A stretch of 61,469 nucleotides of DNA from an uncultured delta proteobacterium (GTDB lineage: Bacteria; Myxococcota_A; Polyangia; Polyangiales; Polyangiaceae), in the NCBI GenBank assembly GCA_903906315.1, contig CAIVJW010000245.1:1-61469 (forward strand). The letters run 5' to 3'. Numbering within the stretch: the first letter of the stretch is position 1; each line of letters begins with the position of its first letter. Shown here piece after piece: positions 155-9,931 of the stretch. Position numbers and translations under genes: made by a program. The notes under the pieces are model-generated. The model made no database searches and was not told where the DNA came from. It worked only from the letters and a program-made list of their open reading frames with translations.

Positions 155-829
155 TCAGTGCGCGCCGACCGGGACCTCGACCACGCCGCCGGGCGTCGGC
201 AGCTCGAAGTCGACCACCGCCTCCCAGGCCACCTTGTTCATCGCCGCGTCCTCCTTCGACGCGTAAACGGGCACGTTGACGCGGTACTTCGCCGCCGGGG
301 CAGACTGCGGCGTCTTGCAGTCGCAGCCGTCGACGGTCTTGCCGTACGTCAAGGTCACTCCCCCCCAACCCGTCTCTATCTCCTGCCCCGGATCGACGGC
401 GACGCCGTCATCCATGCACGCGCCGCAATCCATGCACCCGGGGCCGGACTGGCTGCAATCGACCATGCAGTCCCCGTGGATGGGCAGCGGAGCTCCCCAG
501 CCGTCCGCGCAGGCATAGACGTCGAGCTTCAGGTGGCATTCCTGACGGACGAACGCGGGCGCGCCGCCGTGGTTCGTCACCCGGAACGTCACGGCGTAGG
601 GCCCCGGGTCGGCCGTCGCGACCGCGCACTCGGCGGGCACCGTCGAGGTCGACGTGGTGGTGGTCGTGGTCGTGGTGGTCGGGTTCGTCACCGTGGTGGT
701 CGACCCGCCCCCCGCGCCCTGCCCGCCCTGGCCTCCGGTGGTGGCGGGCCGGTCGACGAGGACGTTGGCGTTGCAGGCGGCAAGGGCGGAGAAGGCGGCG
801 ACGACGACGACGGAAGTGATTCGGAGCAT
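155..829 (-). CDS. Secreted lipoprotein with poly-Thr linker and Cys-rich C-terminal domain (hypothetical)
   Basis: ATG at 829 with GAGAGG-like RBS upstream. N-terminal signal peptide MLRITSVVVVAAFSALAAC (lipobox). Gly/Thr-rich linker (TTTTTTTTTSTST), then a domain with about 12 Cys. The longer ORF upstream of this start is Arg-rich junk. Confidence 0.6.
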   Translation of the reverse strand: MLRITSVVVVAAFSALAACNANVLVDRPATTGGQGGQGAGGGSTTTVTNPTTTTTTTTTSTSTVPAECAVATADPGPYAVTFRVTNHGGAPAFVRQECHLKLDVYACADGWGAPLPIHGDCMVDCSQSGPGCMDCGACMDDGVAVDPGQEIETGWGGVTLTYGKTVDGCDCKTPQSAPAAKYRVNVPVYASKEDAAMNKVAWEAVVDFELPTPGGVVEVPVGAH

Positions 830-1239: not shown

Positions 1240-1995
1240 ATGCGCAAGAGCGGATGGCTGATCGGAGTCCTGGTGCTGCCCGTCGCGGCATGCAGCAACA
1301 GCAGCAACGGCGGCACGGAGGGTCAAGCGGGCAAGTCGGGGCTCTCCTCGACCCTCGTCCTGAGCGCGGCCACCGACGCCCAGAAGCTTCAGTTCTGCAA
1401 CTGGCTCGCGTCCGTCGCGCCGACCAACGCGTGCGGCGCGCCCTCCGCCTCGTCGGCGGACGGCGGGGCGCCGGCGGCGACCGACGGCGGGGCAAGCACG
1501 GCGACCGCCCAGTGCCTGGCTACCTTCACGAAGGTCACTGGGGACTGCACGGTGGAGGTGACCGAGCAGTGCTTCTCGAGCTGGGAGGCGTCGGGCTCCT
1601 GCCAAGCGCCCGCCACAGCGAGCTGCGTCGCCTACACCGCTTGCGTGCAGGCGACGCCTCCCACGAACGGCCCCGACACGCCAACGTCCTACAACTGCTA
1701 TCCCGCCGGGTCGCTGACCAGCGCCGGGACCATCGATGTCGAGCTGTGCAACGTTTCGGCGTTCGGGTGGTTGCCTGCCACGTACGACTTCTGCGGTGGG
1801 GGGAGCTATCCCGTGGGTCTGCCGGCTGTCGCCGTGCGGTGCAACAGCACCTACCCGAAGTGCAATGATTCGTGCTCGGCCTGCATCCTCGACGCTACCA
1901 CCATCAAGCCATCCGACCGATGCTTTGACAAGACCGGCAAACAGACCGTGAGCCCGTGCCTGCCTACCGGGCAGTGTCCATACCCCAACCCTTGA
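1240..1995 (+). CDS. Secreted Cys-rich lipoprotein (hypothetical)
   Basis: Start MRKSGWLIGVLVLPVAACSNSS (lipoprotein signal). Many Cys throughout. The reading frame upstream of this ATG is Arg/Pro-rich junk. Confidence 0.6.
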   Translation: MRKSGWLIGVLVLPVAACSNSSNGGTEGQAGKSGLSSTLVLSAATDAQKLQFCNWLASVAPTNACGAPSASSADGGAPAATDGGASTATAQCLATFTKVTGDCTVEVTEQCFSSWEASGSCQAPATASCVAYTACVQATPPTNGPDTPTSYNCYPAGSLTSAGTIDVELCNVSAFGWLPATYDFCGGGSYPVGLPAVAVRCNSTYPKCNDSCSACILDATTIKPSDRCFDKTGKQTVSPCLPTGQCPYPNP

Positions 1996-2408
1996 ACGGC
2001 AGTAGGAAGCTGACCTCCCGCCTCGGCCAGGACGGCGACCCCGTCAGCGTCGATTCGGATGGCTTCCGCGAAGGGACGACGAACCTTGGGCGGAATGCAA
2101 GCGGGTGCAGCGCCGTGCAGGGGTCGCCATTTCGCTGGGGTCTGGAGCGCCCGCCGCTCTGCAACCTGACGGACCCCCGTCGGCCACGATGAGGCCCTCG
2201 CGCGCGGCCTCCGTGATGGCGTGCTTGGGCCTCCTCCCGGCCGCGTGACGTCCACATGCACCGACCGCGGTCGAGGTTTCTCCAAAGCAGCTTCTCGGCG
2301 CGGCCCTCGTGCGCGGCGGGGCTTTGTGGGGTCGACCTGCGTGGACGGTAGGCGTCGAGGAAGGATGCGGGACCATTGCGAGGTGACCGCCCGTCGACAA
2401 GAACACGC

Positions 2409-2437
2409 TTGTCAAGCGTGCAGCGCTTCCGTACAAA
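2409..2437 (+). promoter_or_regulatory. Candidate sigma70-like promoter (-35 TTGTCA, 17-bp spacer, -10 TACAAA) overlapping palindrome GACAAG-N6-CTTGTC (2396-2413)
   Basis: Read directly from the sequence about 25 nt upstream of the GGGAGG RBS (2445-2450) of the repeat-peptide gene. Confidence 0.2.
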
Positions 2438-2462
2438 CAGGGGCCCAGGGAGGTTCCCCGTC

Positions 2463-2810
2463 ATGTCGAATACGCCGACCCGCCGCTCACTCATCGACCC
2501 CGCCACCGCCGCGCTGATCCTTGCGCCCTTCGCCCTCGGCGCCATCGCGGTCGAGGGGGGCTGCTCCTCCGACGAGACGGTCATCACCGCGACGGGCAGC
2601 GGCGGCGCCGGCGGCGGCGTCATGGCGATCATGGCCCAAGGCGGCGCGGGCGGCGGCGTCATGGCGATCATGGCCCAAGGCGGCGCCGGCGGCGCGGGCG
2701 GCGGCGTCTGGGCGATCGTGGCCCAGGGCGGCGCCGGCGGCGCGGGCGGCGGCGTCATGGCGATCATGGCCCAGGGCGGCGCCGGCGGCGCAGGCGGCAA
2801 GGGCGCGTAG
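2463..2810 (+). CDS. Small secreted repeat peptide; candidate precursor/substrate of the adjacent radical SAM/SPASM enzyme
   Basis: GGGAGG RBS 12 nt upstream of ATG. Tat-like leader TRRSLIDPATAALILAPFALGAIA with AxA cleavage site (AIA-VE). Core carries four tandem repeats GGAGG(AGG)GV[M/W]AI[M/V]AQ. Stop lies 6 nt before the radical SAM start. Confidence 0.6.
   Translation: MSNTPTRRSLIDPATAALILAPFALGAIAVEGGCSSDETVITATGSGGAGGGVMAIMAQGGAGGGVMAIMAQGGAGGAGGGVWAIVAQGGAGGAGGGVMAIMAQGGAGGAGGKGA
2601..2774 (+). repeat. Four tandem in-frame repeats (39-48 nt) encoding GGAGGG-VMAIMAQ / GGAGGAGGG-VWAIVAQ
   Basis: Near-identical DNA repeats ggcggcgccggcggcggcgtcatggcgatcatggcccaa... visible in the sequence. 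The antisense ORF 1964..3562 shows the mirror PPAPPAPPWAMIAMTPPP repeats. Confidence 0.8.
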
Positions 2811-2815
2811 GCCAG

Positions 2816-3898
2816 ATGTCCCTCGGCGTCGGCATCGAGGTCACCCGGCGCTGCAACTTCACCTGTCCGCATTGCTTCGTCGACGCGCGCTCGGCCAAGG
2901 GCAAGCCGCTCGGCGAGGCCGGCGGCGCGCCCGCGCCCGAATGGACGACGGCGGAGCTCGCGGCGCTCGTCCGTGATCTGGCCGCGTGCGGGACGACCGA
3001 CCTCTGCTGGTCGGGCGGAGAGCCGCTGCTGCGCGACGACCTCGAAGAGCTCACGCGTGAGGCTACGTCCAGGGGAATCTGCGTCTCGCTCGTGACGAAT
3101 GGCTCGCTCGCGACGCGCGATCGCCTCGCGCGCCTGCGGGCGAGCGGCCTCGCGACGGTGCAGATCAGCCTCGACGGCGCGACCCCCGAAGCCGCTGCGC
3201 GCATCCGGCGCGGGCCGAAGGCGGCCTTTCGTCGTGCGACCGAGGCGGCGCGCGCCGGCCTCGAGGCCGGCCTCGTGACACACCTCTGCTGCCTGTTGAC
3301 CCCGGAGACGGCCGCCGAGGTCGAGGACATGATCGCCCTCACGCGCGAGCTCGGCGTCCCCGTGCTCCGCTACGCCTCGTGGACGCCCGTCGGCCGCGCC
3401 GCGGGCGAGCGTTACGACGAGGACGCCTGGGCCTCGCCCTCCATTCGCCGGTTTCTCGAGGTCGCGCTCGGCGACCACGCCCCCGGCGTGCGCGTGCTCC
3501 TCGACTGCCCGCTCGGGCCGCACGCGGGCGCGCCGCGCTTTCGCTGCCGCGTCGGGCGTCACTCCATCTACGTCACGGCCGCCGGCGACGTCTTCCCGTG
3601 CACCGCGCTCATGTTCGACGCCTACCGCGCCGGAAACGTGCGAGAGCGGCCTCTCGCGGACATCGTCTTCGGCGCCGACATGTTCAAGGTGGAGCGCGAG
3701 ATCGCCGGGTCACTCCCCGGTGGGCGCTGCGGCACCTGCGGCCTCGTCGAGCACTGCCGCGGAGGCTGCCCCGGCAAGACGTACGCCGTCCACGGCGCCA
3801 TTCGCGGCGGCGAGGCCGACGGCGAGCAACCCGCCTGCTTGCTCGGCGTGCACGGCCTCGTGCGCGGGCCGCGCGGGGCACCCGGGCGTAGCGACTAG
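2816..3898 (+). CDS. Radical SAM/SPASM-domain peptide-modifying enzyme (anSME/PqqE/MftC-type maturase superfamily)
   Basis: N-terminal CNFTCPHC (Cx3Cx2C) radical SAM cluster motif. GGEPLL SAM-binding motif. C-terminal Cys-rich SPASM region (CPLGPH...C...CxxxGxxxxC...GRCGTCGLVEHCRGGCPGK). Confidence 0.85.
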   Translation: MSLGVGIEVTRRCNFTCPHCFVDARSAKGKPLGEAGGAPAPEWTTAELAALVRDLAACGTTDLCWSGGEPLLRDDLEELTREATSRGICVSLVTNGSLATRDRLARLRASGLATVQISLDGATPEAAARIRRGPKAAFRRATEAARAGLEAGLVTHLCCLLTPETAAEVEDMIALTRELGVPVLRYASWTPVGRAAGERYDEDAWASPSIRRFLEVALGDHAPGVRVLLDCPLGPHAGAPRFRCRVGRHSIYVTAAGDVFPCTALMFDAYRAGNVRERPLADIVFGADMFKVEREIAGSLPGGRCGTCGLVEHCRGGCPGKTYAVHGAIRGGEADGEQPACLLGVHGLVRGPRGAPGRSD

Positions 3899-3983
3899 GA
3901 GCGCCAAACGCCATCCGGCCAACTGGCTGGCTCGCAAAGCCGTGGAGCGGATGGCGAGGGAGCGAGAGGGGCGCCAAGAGCAC

Positions 3984-4126
3984 CAAGATCGCCAAGATCG
4001 CCAAGGGAAGATTGGGGGGGTGCCGCGAGCCTGCGCGTCCACGCAGGGCGCATCCGACGGCCGGCCTCCGGCCCCGAAGGGCCCAGCTCCTCCGTCTCGC
4101 TTGGCGTCCTTGGCGTCCTTGGCGCC
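3984..4126. repeat. Inverted pair of short tandem 9-mer repeats (ccaagatcg x2.5 at 3984-4006; cttggcgtc x2.5 at 4100-4126) in convergent intergenic region
   Basis: Direct inspection. The two arms are imperfect reverse complements and could pair as a long hairpin. No credible ORF in 3899-4373. Confidence 0.4.
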
Positions 4127-4373
4127 CTGCTCGGTCGATCCAGCCAGGGCGACGCCGCCCGCCGTACAGCAGCTATTCCAAGCTCCCAGCCACGTCCCGC
4201 AGAATGCGGACCCGATCCTCGCCTGATCCGCGAGGCGCGCTTCGGCCGCCCGTCCGCTTCGTCGTCCCCCGGCTCGTGGACGCAGATCACGACGCACTCA
4301 GCGCGAAGGATGACCTTCGCCGATCGAGGTCGTGCTGGTCGTTCCGTTCGCCTTGGACCGTCGAGGACGGCGG

Positions 4374-6068
4374 CTAGCCGCGCATCGCCGCGATCGCGAG
4401 CCCGAGGAGCTTTCCCCACGAGGGCGCGGCCTCGAAGCGCGTGATCCTCGCGCCGACCTCGGCGAGCGTCTTGTGGTCGGCGAACCAGACCGGCGTCGGG
4501 AAGATGCGGAACGGCGCGCGCACGACCGACTTCTGGGGGTGATCGAAGAGCAGCGCGTTGTGCACCACCCCCGTGCCCGATCGGATGTCCTCGGGCGGGT
4601 GGCCGGGGAACGCGCCCCAGGTCGTGTTGACGAGCGCGTAGAGGACGGCCGGCCAGCAGTTCACGCCGATCCCGCCGTAGCGCAGCTCGGCAATCGCGCG
4701 ATCGAAGGCCTCGGCGTGGTCGCGCTCGGTCGCGGGGTGGATGAAGACGCCGCACGAGAGCGTGCCCCAGCAGCGGTCGTTGGCGAACGCGACGGCCTTC
4801 TCGAGGAAGTCGGCCGGCCCGCTCGCGTCGAGCGAGACCTCCGCGATCACGCCGCAGAAGGCCTCGTTCGAGAGCGCGTACTCGCCCTCGGCCGCCGGCA
4901 CGTCGGGCAGCACCGTCCACGGCACGACGCCCTCGGCGTCCGCGCCGACCGCGTCGGCCTTCGGGTAGTGCTCGACGAAGGCGCGCCAGCGGTCCTTCGC
5001 GCCCGGGTAGTAGGCCTTGCGCGGCGGCGTCCGGGCGAGCGCCTCGCGCACCTTCGCCAGGAACGCGCCCTCCTGCGCCCAGCCCTTCGCGGTCACGAGC
5101 ACCTTGGCCGCGTTGCAGTTGAAGCTCGCGTTCTGCGCGACCATGCCCGCGACGTGCCGCGCCTGGAACGCTAGGTCGGCCTCCGACCACGCGCCGGGGA
5201 CGATCAGGATCGGCGTCACGCAGCCGAGCTCCGCGGTGAACGGGCGCGCGTTCAGGCGGTCGCCCGAGGCCTTGCGGCGCGCCTGATCGGCCGGGTCGCG
5301 GCCCCACACGATCGCGTCGTAGGTGCGGTCCGACCCCGTCACGTGCAGCGTGTCGATCTGCGGGTGATCGGCCAGGTGCGCGCCGACCTCGGCGCCGCCG
5401 TACACGACCGCAAGGAAGCCGTCGTCGATGAGCGCCCGGAACGCGCGCTCGAGGCGCGGGCCGACGTGCGCGTTCACCGGGTTCATCTTGAGGACGACGA
5501 CCTCGTCCTCGACGAACAGCTTGTGGATCACGTCCATCGGCGGGATGGACGACACGTTGCCGGCGCCGAGCACCAGCGCGACGCGGCCGCTCTCGCGCTT
5601 GTTCCGGTAGCAGGCGCCCTGCGTCGCCTCGGCGCCGGGCTCGATCCAGACCTCGCCGACGAAGCCCGTGAACAGGGCACGGTCCATCAGGTTCTGCGGG
5701 AAGACGCGCGCGATCTTCTGGCCGTGGCGCGTCTCGATCGAGACGGGCGGCGGGCGACCGTCGTGCTCGAGCGCGTCGATGAGCAGGCGCAGGTTGCGGA
5801 TCGTCGGGTACGGGCCGGCGACCCACTCCTCGCCCTCGAGCGGCTCGCCGCGCGCGATGCCCTTGAGCGCGCAGCCGCCCGCGACCCAATCGTCGGCGAC
5901 CTCGATCACGCCCTCGATGGCGCGGCGGAGGTAGTCGAGCCGCTGCGCAATGCCCACCACGAGCCACGCGTCCTTCTTCGAGGCGACGCGCGCGACGAGC
6001 TCGTCGACGCGGGCTTTCGGGGTCGGAGGGACGGGCGCGGGCGGCTCCTGGAACGCGGGGGACGGCAT
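4374..6068 (-). CDS. Aldehyde dehydrogenase family protein
   Basis: Start MPSPAFQEPP at 6068; upstream in-frame residues are Arg/Pro junk. ALDH-like region GAGNVSSIPPMDVIHKLFVEDEVVVLKMNPVN...ELGCVTPILIV (catalytic Cys region). Confidence 0.8.
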   Translation of the reverse strand: MPSPAFQEPPAPVPPTPKARVDELVARVASKKDAWLVVGIAQRLDYLRRAIEGVIEVADDWVAGGCALKGIARGEPLEGEEWVAGPYPTIRNLRLLIDALEHDGRPPPVSIETRHGQKIARVFPQNLMDRALFTGFVGEVWIEPGAEATQGACYRNKRESGRVALVLGAGNVSSIPPMDVIHKLFVEDEVVVLKMNPVNAHVGPRLERAFRALIDDGFLAVVYGGAEVGAHLADHPQIDTLHVTGSDRTYDAIVWGRDPADQARRKASGDRLNARPFTAELGCVTPILIVPGAWSEADLAFQARHVAGMVAQNASFNCNAAKVLVTAKGWAQEGAFLAKVREALARTPPRKAYYPGAKDRWRAFVEHYPKADAVGADAEGVVPWTVLPDVPAAEGEYALSNEAFCGVIAEVSLDASGPADFLEKAVAFANDRCWGTLSCGVFIHPATERDHAEAFDRAIAELRYGGIGVNCWPAVLYALVNTTWGAFPGHPPEDIRSGTGVVHNALLFDHPQKSVVRAPFRIFPTPVWFADHKTLAEVGARITRFEAAPSWGKLLGLAIAAMRG

Positions 6069-8182: not shown

Positions 8183-9931
8183 ATGAATCGGTCTGCCGCC
8201 CTGCTCCTCCTCCTCACCGCGTGTGGATCCTCCTCGAGCGCCCCCTCGACGTCCTCCGAGGGCACCACGACGACGGGGAGCCTCGACGCGGGCGCGGGCG
8301 GCGGCGGCGCGACCGGCAGCGGCGGGTCGGGCGGCTCCACCGGCGCCGGCGGCGGAGGCGGCAGCGCGGACGCCGGGGCGGACGCCTCGCCCGCCGACAG
8401 CGGCGGCGACGGCGGCGAGCCCCTGGCGACGGGCTGCGCCGCGCCGATCGCGCTGGCCGTGCCCGGCGCCGACGCCACGGTGGTCGGCGACGGCACGCCC
8501 GCGAGCTGCACCTTCGCGGCGCTCGGGGCCGCCCTCGCCAAGGGCGGCTTCATCGCGTTCTCGTGCGGCGCAGCGCCCATCACGGTCGCGGTCCCGACGA
8601 CGCTCGAGCTGCCGACCGACCGCGACACGGTGCTCGACGGCGGCGGGCTCGTGACGCTCGACGGCGGCGGCACGACGCGCATCCTCGCGTGGAACCACCC
8701 CGACTACCGCAAGAACACGCACGTCCTGACGCTCCAGCGGCTGACGCTCCAGCACGGTCGCTCCGCCGGCAAGGAGCTTGTCCCGGCGCACCCCGCGCCG
8801 TGCTCGTCGGGCTTCGTCGACGGCGCCGGCGGCGCGATCTACATGCGCGACGGCAACCTGCGCGTCTTCGAGTGCACGTTCCTCGACAACCACGCCGAGG
8901 AGCTCGGCCCCGACGTCGGCGGAGGCGCGATCTACGTCGCTGGGTCGCAGAAGACCACGGTCTTCCGCAGCACGTTCAAGGGCAATGGCGCGAGCAACGG
9001 CGGCGCCGTCGGCATGCTGAACAGTGACCTCGAGGTCGTCGACTCGGCCTTCGAGGGCAACACGGCGACCGGGCACGGCGCCAACAGCGTCGACGCCGCG
9101 AAGTGCCCCTTCGAGAACAACCAGGTCGGGTCCGGGGGCAACGGCGGCGCGATCGCGATCGACGGCGGATCCGACGGCCCGGCGCTCTTCTGCGGCGTCA
9201 CGTTCGTCGGCAACCACGGCGGGATCGAGGCGCTCGGCGGCGCGCTGTTCCGCACGCCCGACCTCGCCAAGCAGACCACGACCCTCGATCGCTGCCTCTT
9301 CGACGGCAACCAGGCCGACGGCGCCGGCGGCGCGTACTTCCACAACTCGACGCTGATCGTCCGCGACACGACGTTCAGCAACCAGACCGCCAACGGCTTC
9401 GGCGCCCTGCAGAGCGACGGCAGCACCTTCGACTTCGTGAACGTCACCTTCTCGGGCAACGTCTCGCACAAGGCGCCGGGGGCGACGGTGGCCGCCTTCG
9501 GCGTCGACGGGAGGCTCCTCAATTGCACGTTCGCCGACGGCACGTGCGAGGGAGGCGACATGTTCGGCGCCGCCATCTTCGGCAGCCCGACGCTCACCAT
9601 CGACAGCTCGCTGTTCGTGAACAACACCGGGCAGAACCCGGGCGCGCCGATGCAATGCGTGGTCGGCGCGGGCACGACCGGGACTGGCAACCTGCAGTTT
9701 CCGAAGCAGAACCTGAAGGGCAACGACGACGCCCCCTGCGCGCCCGCCATCACGTTCGCCGACCCGGATCTCGGCGGCCTCGGGCATCACGGCGGGCCGG
9801 TGCCGACGCGGCTGGTGTCGGCGGGCAGCCCGGCGCTCGGCGCGGGGCAGGTGTGCGCCGCGACGGACGCGCGCGGCAAGCCCCGACCCGCGACCGGGTG
9901 CACGGCCGGCGCCACCGAAGGCAGCCCGTGA
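8183..9931 (+). CDS. Lipoprotein with right-handed parallel beta-helix (PbH1/pectate-lyase-like) repeats
   Basis: Signal MNRSAALLLLLTACGSS. Gly/Ser-rich linker. Repeated ...GGAIY..., ...GNxAxxGGAV..., NxTFSGN beta-helix rungs. The long 5' extension of the ORF (7259-8182) overlaps the MBL gene and is junk. Confidence 0.8.
   Translation: MNRSAALLLLLTACGSSSSAPSTSSEGTTTTGSLDAGAGGGGATGSGGSGGSTGAGGGGGSADAGADASPADSGGDGGEPLATGCAAPIALAVPGADATVVGDGTPASCTFAALGAALAKGGFIAFSCGAAPITVAVPTTLELPTDRDTVLDGGGLVTLDGGGTTRILAWNHPDYRKNTHVLTLQRLTLQHGRSAGKELVPAHPAPCSSGFVDGAGGAIYMRDGNLRVFECTFLDNHAEELGPDVGGGAIYVAGSQKTTVFRSTFKGNGASNGGAVGMLNSDLEVVDSAFEGNTATGHGANSVDAAKCPFENNQVGSGGNGGAIAIDGGSDGPALFCGVTFVGNHGGIEALGGALFRTPDLAKQTTTLDRCLFDGNQADGAGGAYFHNSTLIVRDTTFSNQTANGFGALQSDGSTFDFVNVTFSGNVSHKAPGATVAAFGVDGRLLNCTFADGTCEGGDMFGAAIFGSPTLTIDSSLFVNNTGQNPGAPMQCVVGAGTTGTGNLQFPKQNLKGNDDAPCAPAITFADPDLGGLGHHGGPVPTRLVSAGSPALGAGQVCAATDARGKPRPATGCTAGATEGSP

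What the first reader, a model, noticed from the sequence alone, without database searches (positions are those of the whole stretch)
2463..2603. Precursor leader looks like a Tat signal with AxA cleavage: maturation before export of a folded or modified product
The N-terminus TRRSLIDPATAALILAPFALGAIA-VEGG has a twin-arginine-like n-region (T-R-R-x-L-I), a hydrophobic core and an AIA signal-peptidase-I site. Tat exports substrates that are folded or modified in the cytoplasm. This is the logic used by QhpC, which is rSAM-crosslinked by QhpD before export. Here it suggests the repeat domain is modified by the adjacent rSAM and then secreted as a 90-aa Gly-linked multi-helix product, not cleaved into small peptides.
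Basis: inference. Interest (0 to 1): 0.6.

Follow-up and report, generated by a model that had tools for sequence, protein, structure and literature searches.

The report
Export signal on radical-SAM repeat protein
The start of this small repeat protein is a real export signal, but relatives show it is most likely a lipoprotein signal with a conserved cysteine, not a proven Tat signal with an AxA cut, so the protein would be modified by the adjacent radical SAM enzyme and then tethered to the membrane.

Summary
ORF 2463-2810 starts at a well-supported ATG and encodes T-R-R-S-L-I, an 18-residue uncharged core, A-I-A, then E-G-G-C34.

- **Family:** the adjacent rSAM/SPASM enzyme belongs to an uncurated, mostly Myxococcota family. 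It sits next to precursors carrying repeated hydrophobic cores such as PIYILPP, IYAIMP and here VMAIMAQ.
- **Signals:** most precursor types have no signal. I found 13 that do.
- **Cysteine:** a Cys directly follows the hydrophobic core in 12 of 13, and 10 of 13 pass a lipobox pattern. AxA is present in only 3.
- **Twin arginine:** RR is kept in 11 of 13. The extended Tat motif is kept only in the window.
- **Tat tests:** curated Tat-signal HMMs hit none of the 14 N-termini tested but 5 of 6 E. coli controls. The window's core is as hydrophobic as Sec-type signals nearby. RR occurs in 3 of 9 other signals in this 74% GC window.
- **QhpC analogy:** QhpC is exported by an ABC transporter, not Tat.

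Best reading: cytoplasmic rSAM modification, then general-pathway export as a lipoprotein, like the MNIO "DAG-RiPPs". The window's own lipobox is flawed (Glu at -3), so AIA cleavage remains possible.

The parts
2448..2453 (+). Shine-Dalgarno-like GGGAGG, 9 nt upstream of the ATG
   Evidence: Read. The same GGAGGTTCC context precedes the ATG of the closest relative, L046.
2463..2810 (+). Precursor gene, 115 aa plus stop: export signal, Ser/Thr/Gly linker and four Gly-flanked hydrophobic heptads
   Evidence: ORF. GC3 is 0.948. The same product was called on another contig. No Pfam or NCBIfam match.
2463..2498 (+). n-region M1-D12, holding T6-R7-R8-S9-L10-I11 (RR codons 2481-2486)
   Evidence: Matches the TatP-style pattern but no Tat-signal HMM.
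2499..2552 (+). h-region P13-V30, 18 uncharged residues
   Evidence: mean Kyte-Doolittle 1.98 and best 10-residue window 2.43. This lies within the range of the other signals in the window (2.2-2.8).
2541..2549 (+). A27-I28-A29, a candidate signal peptidase I site (cut after A29)
   Evidence: AxA near the end of the core is kept only in L046 and L058.
2553..2564 (+). E31-G32-G33-C34, a lipobox-like element; Cys34 is the only Cys and is invariant in alignments A2 and A3
   Evidence: Cys invariant. Cys follows the core in 12 of 13 and 10 of 13 pass a PS00013-like pattern. The window fails that pattern only because of Glu at -3.
2565..2618 (+). Linker S35-G52 (SSDETVITATGSGGAGGG), typical of what follows the lipid-modified Cys in lipoproteins of this window
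   Evidence: Compared with the window lipoproteins C-SSSPTSS, C-SNSSNGG and C-GSSSS.
2619..2774 (+). Four hydrophobic heptads (VMAIMAQ three times, VWAIVAQ once) separated by Gly/Ala runs; the presumed rSAM target sites
   Evidence: Tandem array 2601-2798 with periods 39 and 48. Equivalent cores sit next to homologous rSAMs: AIAIMAP, PYPIMAP, IYAIMP, PIYILPP, VYALMP, YYIMAW.
2816..3898 (+). Radical SAM/SPASM enzyme, 360 aa, starting 5 nt after the precursor stop; no signal peptide and no N-terminal RRE (CxxxCxxC at residues 13-20)
   Evidence: Pfam Radical_SAM at 9.7e-26 and SPASM at 1.5e-8. Below the cut-off of every NCBIfam family. Full SPASM Cys set is invariant in alignment A1. About 65 homologue clusters at 45-53% identity and two at 75-77%.

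Best explanation
Residues 1 to about 33 form a cleavable export signal on the substrate of the adjacent cytoplasmic radical SAM/SPASM enzyme.

Proposed sequence of events:
1. The two genes are co-translated (5-nt gap).
2. The rSAM modifies each hydrophobic heptad of the repeat domain in the cytoplasm. The chemistry is unknown. It probably recognises the repeated core itself, because the enzyme has no RRE and the family's precursors have unrelated N-termini.
3. The general export machinery then takes the protein across the inner membrane. I rate Sec about 0.6 and Tat about 0.3.
4. Most likely the protein is processed as a lipoprotein, with diacylglyceryl transfer to Cys34 and signal peptidase II cleavage before it. 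This would give an 82-residue, Gly-rich, membrane-tethered repeat protein.

This would be the radical SAM counterpart of the MNIO-made 'DAG-RiPPs'. For this particular copy I rate lipoprotein processing about 0.55 and SPase I cleavage after AIA about 0.35. The latter would give a soluble 86-residue product.

Shown: gene structure, signal anatomy, the rSAM-precursor pairing across loci, and the conservation pattern. Inferred: modification, order of events, export route, lipidation.
For: - **Start and translation of the leader:**
- **The rSAM is cytoplasmic and complete:**
- **Pairing:** homologous rSAMs in more than 20 loci lie next to ORFs carrying the same kind of repeated hydrophobic core, whatever the rest of the protein looks like.
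- **Signal conservation:** among 13 signal-bearing precursors from at least three rSAM clades, a Cys directly follows the hydrophobic core in 12, and 10 satisfy a PS00013-like lipobox pattern. The thirteenth has a MYXO-CTERM-like sorting tag instead (17.5 bits against a cut-off of 20), so it is also cell-envelope targeted.
- **Local style:** the residues after Cys34 (SSDET) resemble other lipoproteins of the window. The only family-library hit of the window's N-terminus is a weak match to a lipoprotein signal (YgdI/YgdR, E 0.07).
- **No dedicated machinery:** no conserved protease or transporter nearby.
- **Precedents:** DAG-RiPPs carry an SPII signal, a cytoplasmic modifying enzyme and a triacylated Cys (PMC13056109). 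Bufferins are modified in the cytoplasm, exported by Sec, and their signal is dispensable for modification (PMC11626156).
Against: - The window's own lipobox is non-canonical. Glu at -3 fails the PS00013-like pattern, and a good AxA site lies five residues upstream.
- No signal-peptide predictor (SignalP, LipoP, TatP) could be run.
- RR-S is kept in most signal-bearing relatives (11 of 13 keep RR), and the signals are long (31-34 residues or more). Both features lean towards Tat.
- Most family precursors have no signal at all, so export is not intrinsic to the system.
- The closest relative's N-terminus needs a 1-nt frame repair.
- Nothing shows that the rSAM actually modifies this protein.
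Confidence: 0.55

Rival explanations
1. The leader is a Tat signal cut by signal peptidase I after A27-I28-A29. The rSAM-modified repeat domain is exported by TatABC and released as a soluble periplasmic or secreted protein of about 86 residues.
For: - T-R-R-S-L-I matches the TatP-style pattern, and RR lies 4 residues from the hydrophobic core.
- The signal is long: 29 to 33 residues, against 13 to 28 for the other signals in the window.
- RR is kept in 11 of 13 signal-bearing relatives, against 3 of 9 unrelated signals in the window. Fisher p = 0.026, but the relatives are not independent.
- AIA is a good -3/-1 site, and Glu at -3 spoils the lipobox of this copy.
Against: - TIGR01409 and PF10518 hit none of the 10 family N-termini scanned against both libraries at E<=10, and TIGR01409 none of four more, against 5 of 6 E. 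coli Tat controls.
- The extended motif is present in 1 of 13. RR+2 is Asp in L046, L134 and L058. RR is replaced by RQ or KR in two.
- RR lies 12 to about 30 residues from the core in the L002-type, L060 and L058 precursors.
- The hydrophobicity of the window's core (best 10-residue window 2.43) is Sec-like. There is no basic c-region residue.
- AxA is kept in only 3 of 13, while Cys is kept in 12 of 13.
- Sec-exported, cytoplasmically modified RiPPs exist, so Tat is not needed.
- Exposed hydrophobic heptads in an unstructured Gly-rich chain are poor Tat cargo. This last point rests on general knowledge of Tat proofreading and was not tested here.
Confidence: 0.13
2. This is a Tat-routed lipoprotein, the Tat/SPII class. 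The RR motif directs the modified protein to Tat, and Cys34 is then lipidated and cut by signal peptidase II.
For: It combines the two conserved features, RR in 11 of 13 and Cys in 12 of 13. The L002-type signals have Tat-like, weakly hydrophobic, Gly/Ser/Thr-rich cores, with a best 10-residue window of 1.3-1.6 and a Gly/Ser/Thr fraction of 0.4. Tat-dependent lipoproteins are an established class in high-GC bacteria and haloarchaea. That last point is from my own knowledge.
Against: The Tat-signal HMMs are negative, as for the rival above. In the L002-type signals, four charged residues separate RR from the core. The window's own core is strongly hydrophobic.
Confidence: 0.17
3. The N-terminus is not an export signal. 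It would be a RiPP leader or an uncleaved membrane anchor that presents the repeats to the rSAM, and the product would stay at or inside the cytoplasmic membrane.
For: - The N-terminal 35 residues of the L002-type precursors are better conserved than the rest of the protein, as leaders usually are.
- Many family members are clearly not exported: L001, L003-type, L057 and L131. In L135 the repeats precede a TM segment.
Against: - The rSAM has no RRE.
- Signal-less relatives share nothing with this N-terminus, so the enzyme does not need it.
- An 18-residue core broken by Pro and Gly and followed by small residues and Cys is signal-like rather than TM-like.
- One relative swaps the lipobox for a MYXO-CTERM-like tag, which only makes sense outside the cytoplasm.
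Confidence: 0.1

Closest known systems
DAG-RiPPs (RiPP-lipoprotein hybrids such as DybA/DybH and NedA; PNAS 2026, PMC13056109)
   Same: A small precursor carries an N-terminal signal whose invariant Cys follows the hydrophobic core. The modifying enzyme has no signal, so modification precedes export. No dedicated protease or exporter is present. The predicted product is a lipid-anchored modified peptide.
   Different: The modifying enzyme there is an MNIO (DUF692) acting on Cys motifs. Here it is a radical SAM/SPASM enzyme acting on Cys-free hydrophobic heptads. 'Radical SAM' does not occur in that paper. Lipidation is unproven here, and the window's lipobox has Glu at -3.
Bufferins (BufA/BufB/BufC; PMC11626156)
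   Same: The RiPP precursor has a general-pathway signal peptide instead of a classical leader. Modification is cytoplasmic, export follows, and the signal is dispensable for modification.
   Different: Bufferins use a Sec/SPase I signal, MNIO chemistry on Cys, a folded copper-binding product and a different protein family.
QhpC/QhpD of quinohemoprotein amine dehydrogenase
   Same: An rSAM/SPASM enzyme modifies a small protein in the cytoplasm before it reaches the periplasm.
   Different: The QhpC leader is not a signal peptide. It is cut by the protease QhpE in the cytoplasm, and export uses the ABC transporter QhpF, not Tat. QhpD makes Cys-to-Asp/Glu thioethers, whereas this protein has one Cys. 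No protease or ABC transporter is present here.
Anaerobic sulfatase-maturing enzymes with exported sulfatases (own knowledge, not tested here)
   Same: An rSAM/SPASM enzyme modifies a signal-peptide-bearing protein in the cytoplasm before general-pathway export. This includes lipoprotein sulfatases in Bacteroides.
   Different: anSME makes a single formylglycine in a folded enzyme, not a repeated short motif. No sequence relationship beyond the superfamily was seen.
TIGR04133 'rSAM_w_lipo' radical SAM/SPASM family (NCBIfam)
   Same: This is a curated rSAM/SPASM family named for its association with a lipoprotein partner. It appears in the hit list of the window's rSAM.
   Different: The score is 93 bits against a cut-off of 425, so the window's enzyme is not a member. 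The window's precursor matches no NCBIfam model. That family is itself uncharacterised.
PqqE, MftC, StsB and SkfB type SPASM peptide maturases
   Same: These are the best sequence relatives: StsB 133 bits, MftC 113, PqqE 111, and PDB entries 6c8v (PqqE) and 6efn (SkfB) at about 1e-12. The window's enzyme has a full SPASM with two auxiliary-cluster Cys sets.
   Different: All scores are far below the family cut-offs. There is no partner RRE protein. The substrate motif is different and the chemistry is unknown.

Membership tests
Tat (twin-arginine) signal peptide | Consecutive arginines in the n-region | tested here: met
   R7-R8 are present. RR is present in 11 of 13 signal-bearing relatives. 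The base rate is high: 3 of 9 other signals in this window also have RR.
   The window matches (T-R-R-S-L-I), but it is the only one of 13 relatives that does. Two of 9 unrelated signals in the window also match.
Tat (twin-arginine) signal peptide | Match to the curated Tat-signal profiles TIGR01409 and PF10518 | tested here: not met
   No hit at E<=10 in either library for the 10 family N-termini scanned against both, nor in TIGR01409 for four more scanned against NCBIfam only. Positive controls: 5 of 6 E. coli Tat signals hit TIGR01409 (4 above cut-off) and 5 of 6 hit PF10518. The profiles are not fully sensitive.
Tat (twin-arginine) signal peptide | An h-region less hydrophobic than Sec signals, and a basic 'Sec-avoidance' residue in the c-region | tested here: not met
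   The window's best 10-residue Kyte-Doolittle mean is 2.43. The c-region holds Glu and no Lys or Arg.
Tat (twin-arginine) signal peptide | Export depends on TatABC and on the RR pair | not testable with these tools
   This needs a tat mutant or an R7K/R8K reporter assay.
Sec/SPase I signal peptide (AxA cleavage) | Small residues at -3 and -1 shortly after the h-region | tested here: met
   A27-I28-A29 then Val30. The site is kept only in L046 and L058, so 3 of 13 in total.
Bacterial lipoprotein signal (SPase II, lipobox) | Cys immediately after the h-region, within the first 35 residues, with Lys or Arg in the first 7 | tested here: met
   Cys34 and R7 are present. Cys is invariant in alignments A2 and A3 and present in 12 of 13 signal-bearing precursors.
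   The window has V-E-G-G-C, and Glu at -3 fails the pattern. Ten of 13 relatives pass, for example LALGGC, VVAGC, SALGC and VVAC.
Bacterial lipoprotein signal (SPase II, lipobox) | Diacylglyceryl modification of the Cys and globomycin-sensitive cleavage | not testable with these tools
   This needs lipid labelling, mass spectrometry or a globomycin experiment.
DAG-RiPP (RiPP-lipoprotein hybrid) | An SPII-type precursor encoded next to a signal-less modifying enzyme | tested here: inconclusive
   Adjacency and the signal-less enzyme are shown. The SPII signal is clear in relatives but flawed in the window's copy.
DAG-RiPP (RiPP-lipoprotein hybrid) | The modifying enzyme is an MNIO, as in all members described so far | tested here: not met
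   The enzyme is Radical_SAM plus SPASM. The paper has no radical SAM example.
QhpC/QhpD system | A dedicated leader protease (QhpE) and ABC exporter (QhpF), with multiple Cys for thioether bonds | tested here: not met
   No protease or ABC transporter is found nearby or conserved across loci. The precursor has a single Cys. The system is defined in PMC7876137.
Curated rSAM/SPASM maturase families (StsB, MftC, PqqE, GeoRSP, TIGR04133 and others) | Score above the family's curated cut-off | tested here: not met
   The best is StsB at 133.5 bits against 625. MftC scores 112.7 against 265, and TIGR04133 scores 93 against 425.

The most novel reading that the evidence does not exclude
The window encodes a member of an undescribed, mostly myxobacterial family of radical-SAM-matured repeat proteins. 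The enzyme would recognise a short hydrophobic core directly, without a leader or RRE. Several lineages would have fused the substrate to a lipoprotein signal, giving the first radical SAM class of RiPP-lipoprotein hybrids ('rSAM DAG-RiPPs'). These might be routed by Tat in some lineages.
Probability: 0.4. Interest if true: 0.65.

Novelty: new variant of a known kind. Interest (0 to 1): 0.5.

Why it matters
If correct, it takes the newly described idea of RiPPs that use the housekeeping lipoprotein pathway from MNIO enzymes to the much larger radical SAM/SPASM superfamily.

It also gives a compact two-gene system for asking how cytoplasmic modification is timed against export, and whether Sec or Tat carries a cross-linked or otherwise modified unstructured chain.

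The family offers natural controls. The same enzyme-core pair occurs with no signal, with a classical short leader, with a lipobox, or with a MYXO-CTERM-like tag. The chemistry installed on a Cys-free aliphatic heptad (VMAIMAQ, PIYILPP) is unknown and could be new.

The specific Tat/AxA claim matters less. It is a routine prediction question that SignalP and a reporter fusion would settle.

Tried and rejected
- **Direct homology search with the precursor.** The word-indexed 5.8-billion-protein search and the exhaustive 1.84-billion-protein phmmer search found only the same protein with one repeat (P0001) and one low-complexity hit (P0112). Relatives had to be reached through the rSAM and through a profile of signal-bearing precursors.
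- **Family libraries.** Pfam and NCBIfam gave nothing for any precursor.
- **Promoter and terminator scan.** Nothing in 1900-4400.
- **Literature.** A search for radical SAM precursors with Tat signals found no paper. Searches for rSAM/SPASM with lipobox, and for Myxococcota rSAM repeat precursors, found nothing relevant.
- It failed on every sequence because of charged residues in the long n-regions, so I discarded it as uninformative.
- **A downstream start codon.** Considered and rejected on the GC3 step, the Shine-Dalgarno-like sequence, and the absence of an in-frame start before Met54.
- **Chance adjacency of the rSAM.** Considered and rejected because the pairing recurs in more than 20 loci.
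- **Membership in StsB, MftC, PqqE or TIGR04133.** Rejected on curated cut-offs. I recalled the GRRM system as a lead; its model was not among the 25 best families shown.
- **The rSAM tree.** This is an unsupported NJ sketch. I use it only to say that signals occur in more than one clade.

Full report
**1. What is in the sequence**

Window 2463-2810 (+) is a 115-aa ORF: MSNTPTRRSLIDPATAALILAPFALGAIAVEGGCSSDETVITATGSGGAGGG, followed by four heptads (VMAIMAQ, VMAIMAQ, VWAIVAQ, VMAIMAQ) separated by Gly/Ala runs, ending in GGKGA. The heptads come from a 39/48-bp tandem array at 2601-2798.

R7-R8, the 18-residue uncharged core P13-V30 and A27-I28-A29 are all present.

The leader is translated:
- GC3 is 0.936 over the leader and 0.948 over the ORF, against 0.69 for the in-frame stretch just upstream.
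- GGGAGG lies 9 nt before the ATG.
- There is no in-frame ATG, GTG or TTG before Met54.
- The same 115-aa product was called on an independent contig.

It is the only Cys in the protein and lies four residues after AIA, in the context V-E-G-G-C-S-S-D-E.

Five nucleotides after the stop, a 360-aa radical SAM/SPASM enzyme begins at 2816 and runs to 3898. It has no signal peptide and no room for an N-terminal RRE, because its CxxxCxxC motif is at residues 13-20. It has a full, invariant SPASM cysteine set. It scores far below the curated cut-off of every NCBIfam rSAM family: StsB 133 against 625, MftC 113 against 265, TIGR04133 'rSAM_w_lipo' 93 against 425. Its closest solved relatives are PqqE and SkfB at about 1e-12.

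**2. Relatives**

The precursor is almost an orphan by sequence. Two very large searches found only a one-repeat version of itself, P0001, probably an assembly collapse.

The rSAM has about 65 homologue clusters at 45-53% identity and two at 75-77%. I fetched their loci from genomes, which were mostly Myxococcota MAGs, from metagenomes, and by exact look-up.

In more than 20 loci an ORF directly next to the rSAM carries the same kind of short hydrophobic core, usually repeated. Examples are AIAIMAP (L046), PYPIMAP (L048), P-I-Y-A-I-M-P (L002 type), GPIYILPP, GPLYIMPPPG, KYMAPGPIYILPPGGGGG, VYALMP, YYIMAW, GPVYIISKPP and GIYYILP.

The rest of the precursor varies widely:
- a LysM-like N-terminus (L001);
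- long proteins with a helical middle domain and two repeat types, flanked by two rSAM paralogues (L003, L004, L006, L008);
- a classical short leader plus one core (L131);
- repeats preceding a TM segment (L135);
- proteins with N-terminal export signals.

No protease or transporter is conserved. None of the precursors matches Pfam or NCBIfam.

I conclude that the rSAM and the core motif form the functional pair. The enzyme probably reads the core itself rather than a leader. This is an inference from the missing RRE and the unrelated N-termini.

**3. The signal-bearing subset**

I assembled 13 signal-bearing precursors:
- the window;
- L046 (its rSAM is 77% identical);
- seven 'L002-type' proteins, P0105-P0111, found with a profile search;
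- L134, L059 (the same as L136), L060 and L058.

*Cysteine and lipobox.* A Cys directly follows the hydrophobic core in 12 of 13, and it is invariant in alignments A2 and A3. Ten of 13 satisfy a PS00013-like lipobox pattern, for example LALGGC|GSSDD, VVAGC|GSSSG, SALGC|KSSS and VVAC|GGST. The exception, L058, has an SPase-I-like end and a C-terminal MYXO-CTERM-like tag (17.5 bits against a cut-off of 20). It is therefore also envelope-targeted.

*AxA.* An AxA near the end of the core is present in only 3 of 13.

The residues after Cys34 in the window (SSDET) resemble other lipoproteins in the same window. The only library hit of the window's N-terminus is a weak match to a lipoprotein signal (YgdI/YgdR, E 0.07). 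The lineage-wide state is therefore a lipoprotein signal.

The window's own copy is imperfect. Glu at -3 breaks the pattern, and a good AxA site lies five residues upstream. For this copy I rate signal peptidase II about 0.55 and signal peptidase I about 0.35.

**4. Tat or Sec**

For Tat:
- T-R-R-S-L-I fits the TatP-style pattern.
- RR lies 4 residues from the core, and the signal is long.
- RR, usually as R-R-S, is kept in 11 of 13. Two have RQ or KR instead.
- The L002-type cores are weakly hydrophobic and rich in Gly, Ser and Thr.

Against Tat:
- The curated profiles TIGR01409 and PF10518 gave no hit at E<=10 for the 10 family N-termini scanned against both libraries, and TIGR01409 none for four more scanned against NCBIfam only. 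With the same tool, 5 of 6 E. coli Tat signals hit each profile.
- The extended motif is present in only 1 of 13. RR+2 is Asp in L046, L134 and L058.
- RR lies 12 to about 30 residues from the core, with charged residues in between, in the L002-type, L060 and L058 precursors.
- The window's own core is as hydrophobic (best 10-residue Kyte-Doolittle mean 2.43) as the other signals in the window (2.2-2.8). There is no basic c-region residue.
- RR is common in this 74% GC sequence: 3 of 9 other signals have it and 2 fit the pattern.

Tat is also unnecessary for the logic. Bufferins are modified in the cytoplasm and leave by Sec, with the signal dispensable for modification (PMC11626156). DAG-RiPPs use the ordinary lipoprotein pathway (PMC13056109).

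The QhpC analogy is wrong on the export route. The QhpC leader is removed by QhpE in the cytoplasm, and export uses the ABC transporter QhpF (PMC7876137).

I put Tat at about 0.3 overall: about 0.13 with AxA cleavage and about 0.17 with the lipobox.

**5. Mechanism proposed**

1. Precursor and rSAM are co-translated.
2. In the cytoplasm the rSAM modifies each heptad. The chemistry is unknown. Candidates are a carbon-carbon cross-link within the core, since most relatives have Tyr, Trp or Phe two residues before an aliphatic residue, or epimerisation of aliphatic residues. The window's cores mostly lack an aromatic residue, so I do not commit to either.
3. The signal takes the whole repeat domain across the inner membrane.
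4. Cys34 is lipidated and the signal removed. This leaves an 82-residue, Gly-rich, membrane-tethered protein that displays four modified hydrophobic patches.

Only the gene anatomy, the pairing and the conservation pattern are shown. The rest is inferred.

The family core is bracketed by prolines and often contains them.

**6. Comparison and novelty**

In logic the system is closest to DAG-RiPPs, but the enzyme is a radical SAM/SPASM protein rather than an MNIO, and that paper has no radical SAM example. It is not a member of any curated rSAM or precursor family. I found no paper describing it.

I rate it a new variant of a known kind. The specific Tat/AxA claim is a weakly supported prediction. 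The more interesting finding is the undescribed rSAM-repeat family and its lipoprotein-type members.

Noticed in passing
window 2601-2798; P0001 on L049 and L050: The same gene occurs with four heptads (115 aa; the window and a 4120-bp contig) and with one heptad (70 aa, three short-read contigs). This is probably k-mer collapse of the 39/48-bp tandem array, so the true repeat number is uncertain.
   Followed up: partly
L046 about 4610-4992: In the closest relative, the ATG with the same GGAGGTTCC Shine-Dalgarno context is 1 nt out of frame with the rest of the precursor. Adding one base gives MARKTRRIDAAS... This is either an assembly error or a real frameshift. The gene caller only found a 47-aa fragment.
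   Followed up: partly
L003, L004, L006, L007, L008 (upstream of the precursor): A second rSAM paralogue flanks the long precursors of L003, L004, L006 and L008, which carry two different repeat types (AAKYMVVP near the N-terminus and PIYILPP at the C-terminus). L007 has the paralogue too, but I saw only one core in its precursor. This suggests one enzyme per motif.
   Followed up: no
L058 4029-4646: The precursor lies downstream of the rSAM, with five VYALMP(P/A)MD repeats and a C-terminal GGSC-TM-RKRRRR tail. The tail matches MYXO-CTERM just below cut-off (17.5 bits against 20).
   Followed up: partly
L131 3711-3851 and 1104-2465: This is a low-GC member with a classical short precursor (MEKKDLKDILSMIKEKLERDAEAGCFFADCDDCPQDGIYYILPIDK) downstream of the rSAM, and an additional 453-aa rSAM upstream.
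   Followed up: no
L135 3140-4552: A 470-aa protein in which GPVYIISKPPGD and GPINIIAKPPDG repeats precede a TM segment and a large C-terminal domain. The core motif is therefore not confined to small peptides.
   Followed up: no
window 2396-2437: A near-consensus promoter-like pair, TTGTCA-17 nt-TACAAA, lies at 2409-2437. A 6-bp inverted repeat, GACAAG/CTTGTC, lies at 2396-2413. Both are just upstream of the Shine-Dalgarno-like sequence. I read them by eye; the tool's stricter scan reported nothing.
   Followed up: partly
window 155-829 (-) and 1240-1995 (+): Two divergently arranged, Cys-rich predicted lipoproteins with no significant Pfam family lie just upstream of the cassette. They are not conserved next to the rSAM in other loci.
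   Followed up: partly
window 8183-9931 (+): A predicted lipoprotein (MNRSAALLLLLTAC...) with a Gly/Ser-rich linker and a right-handed beta-helix domain (Pfam Beta_helix, 5.8e-13).
   Followed up: no
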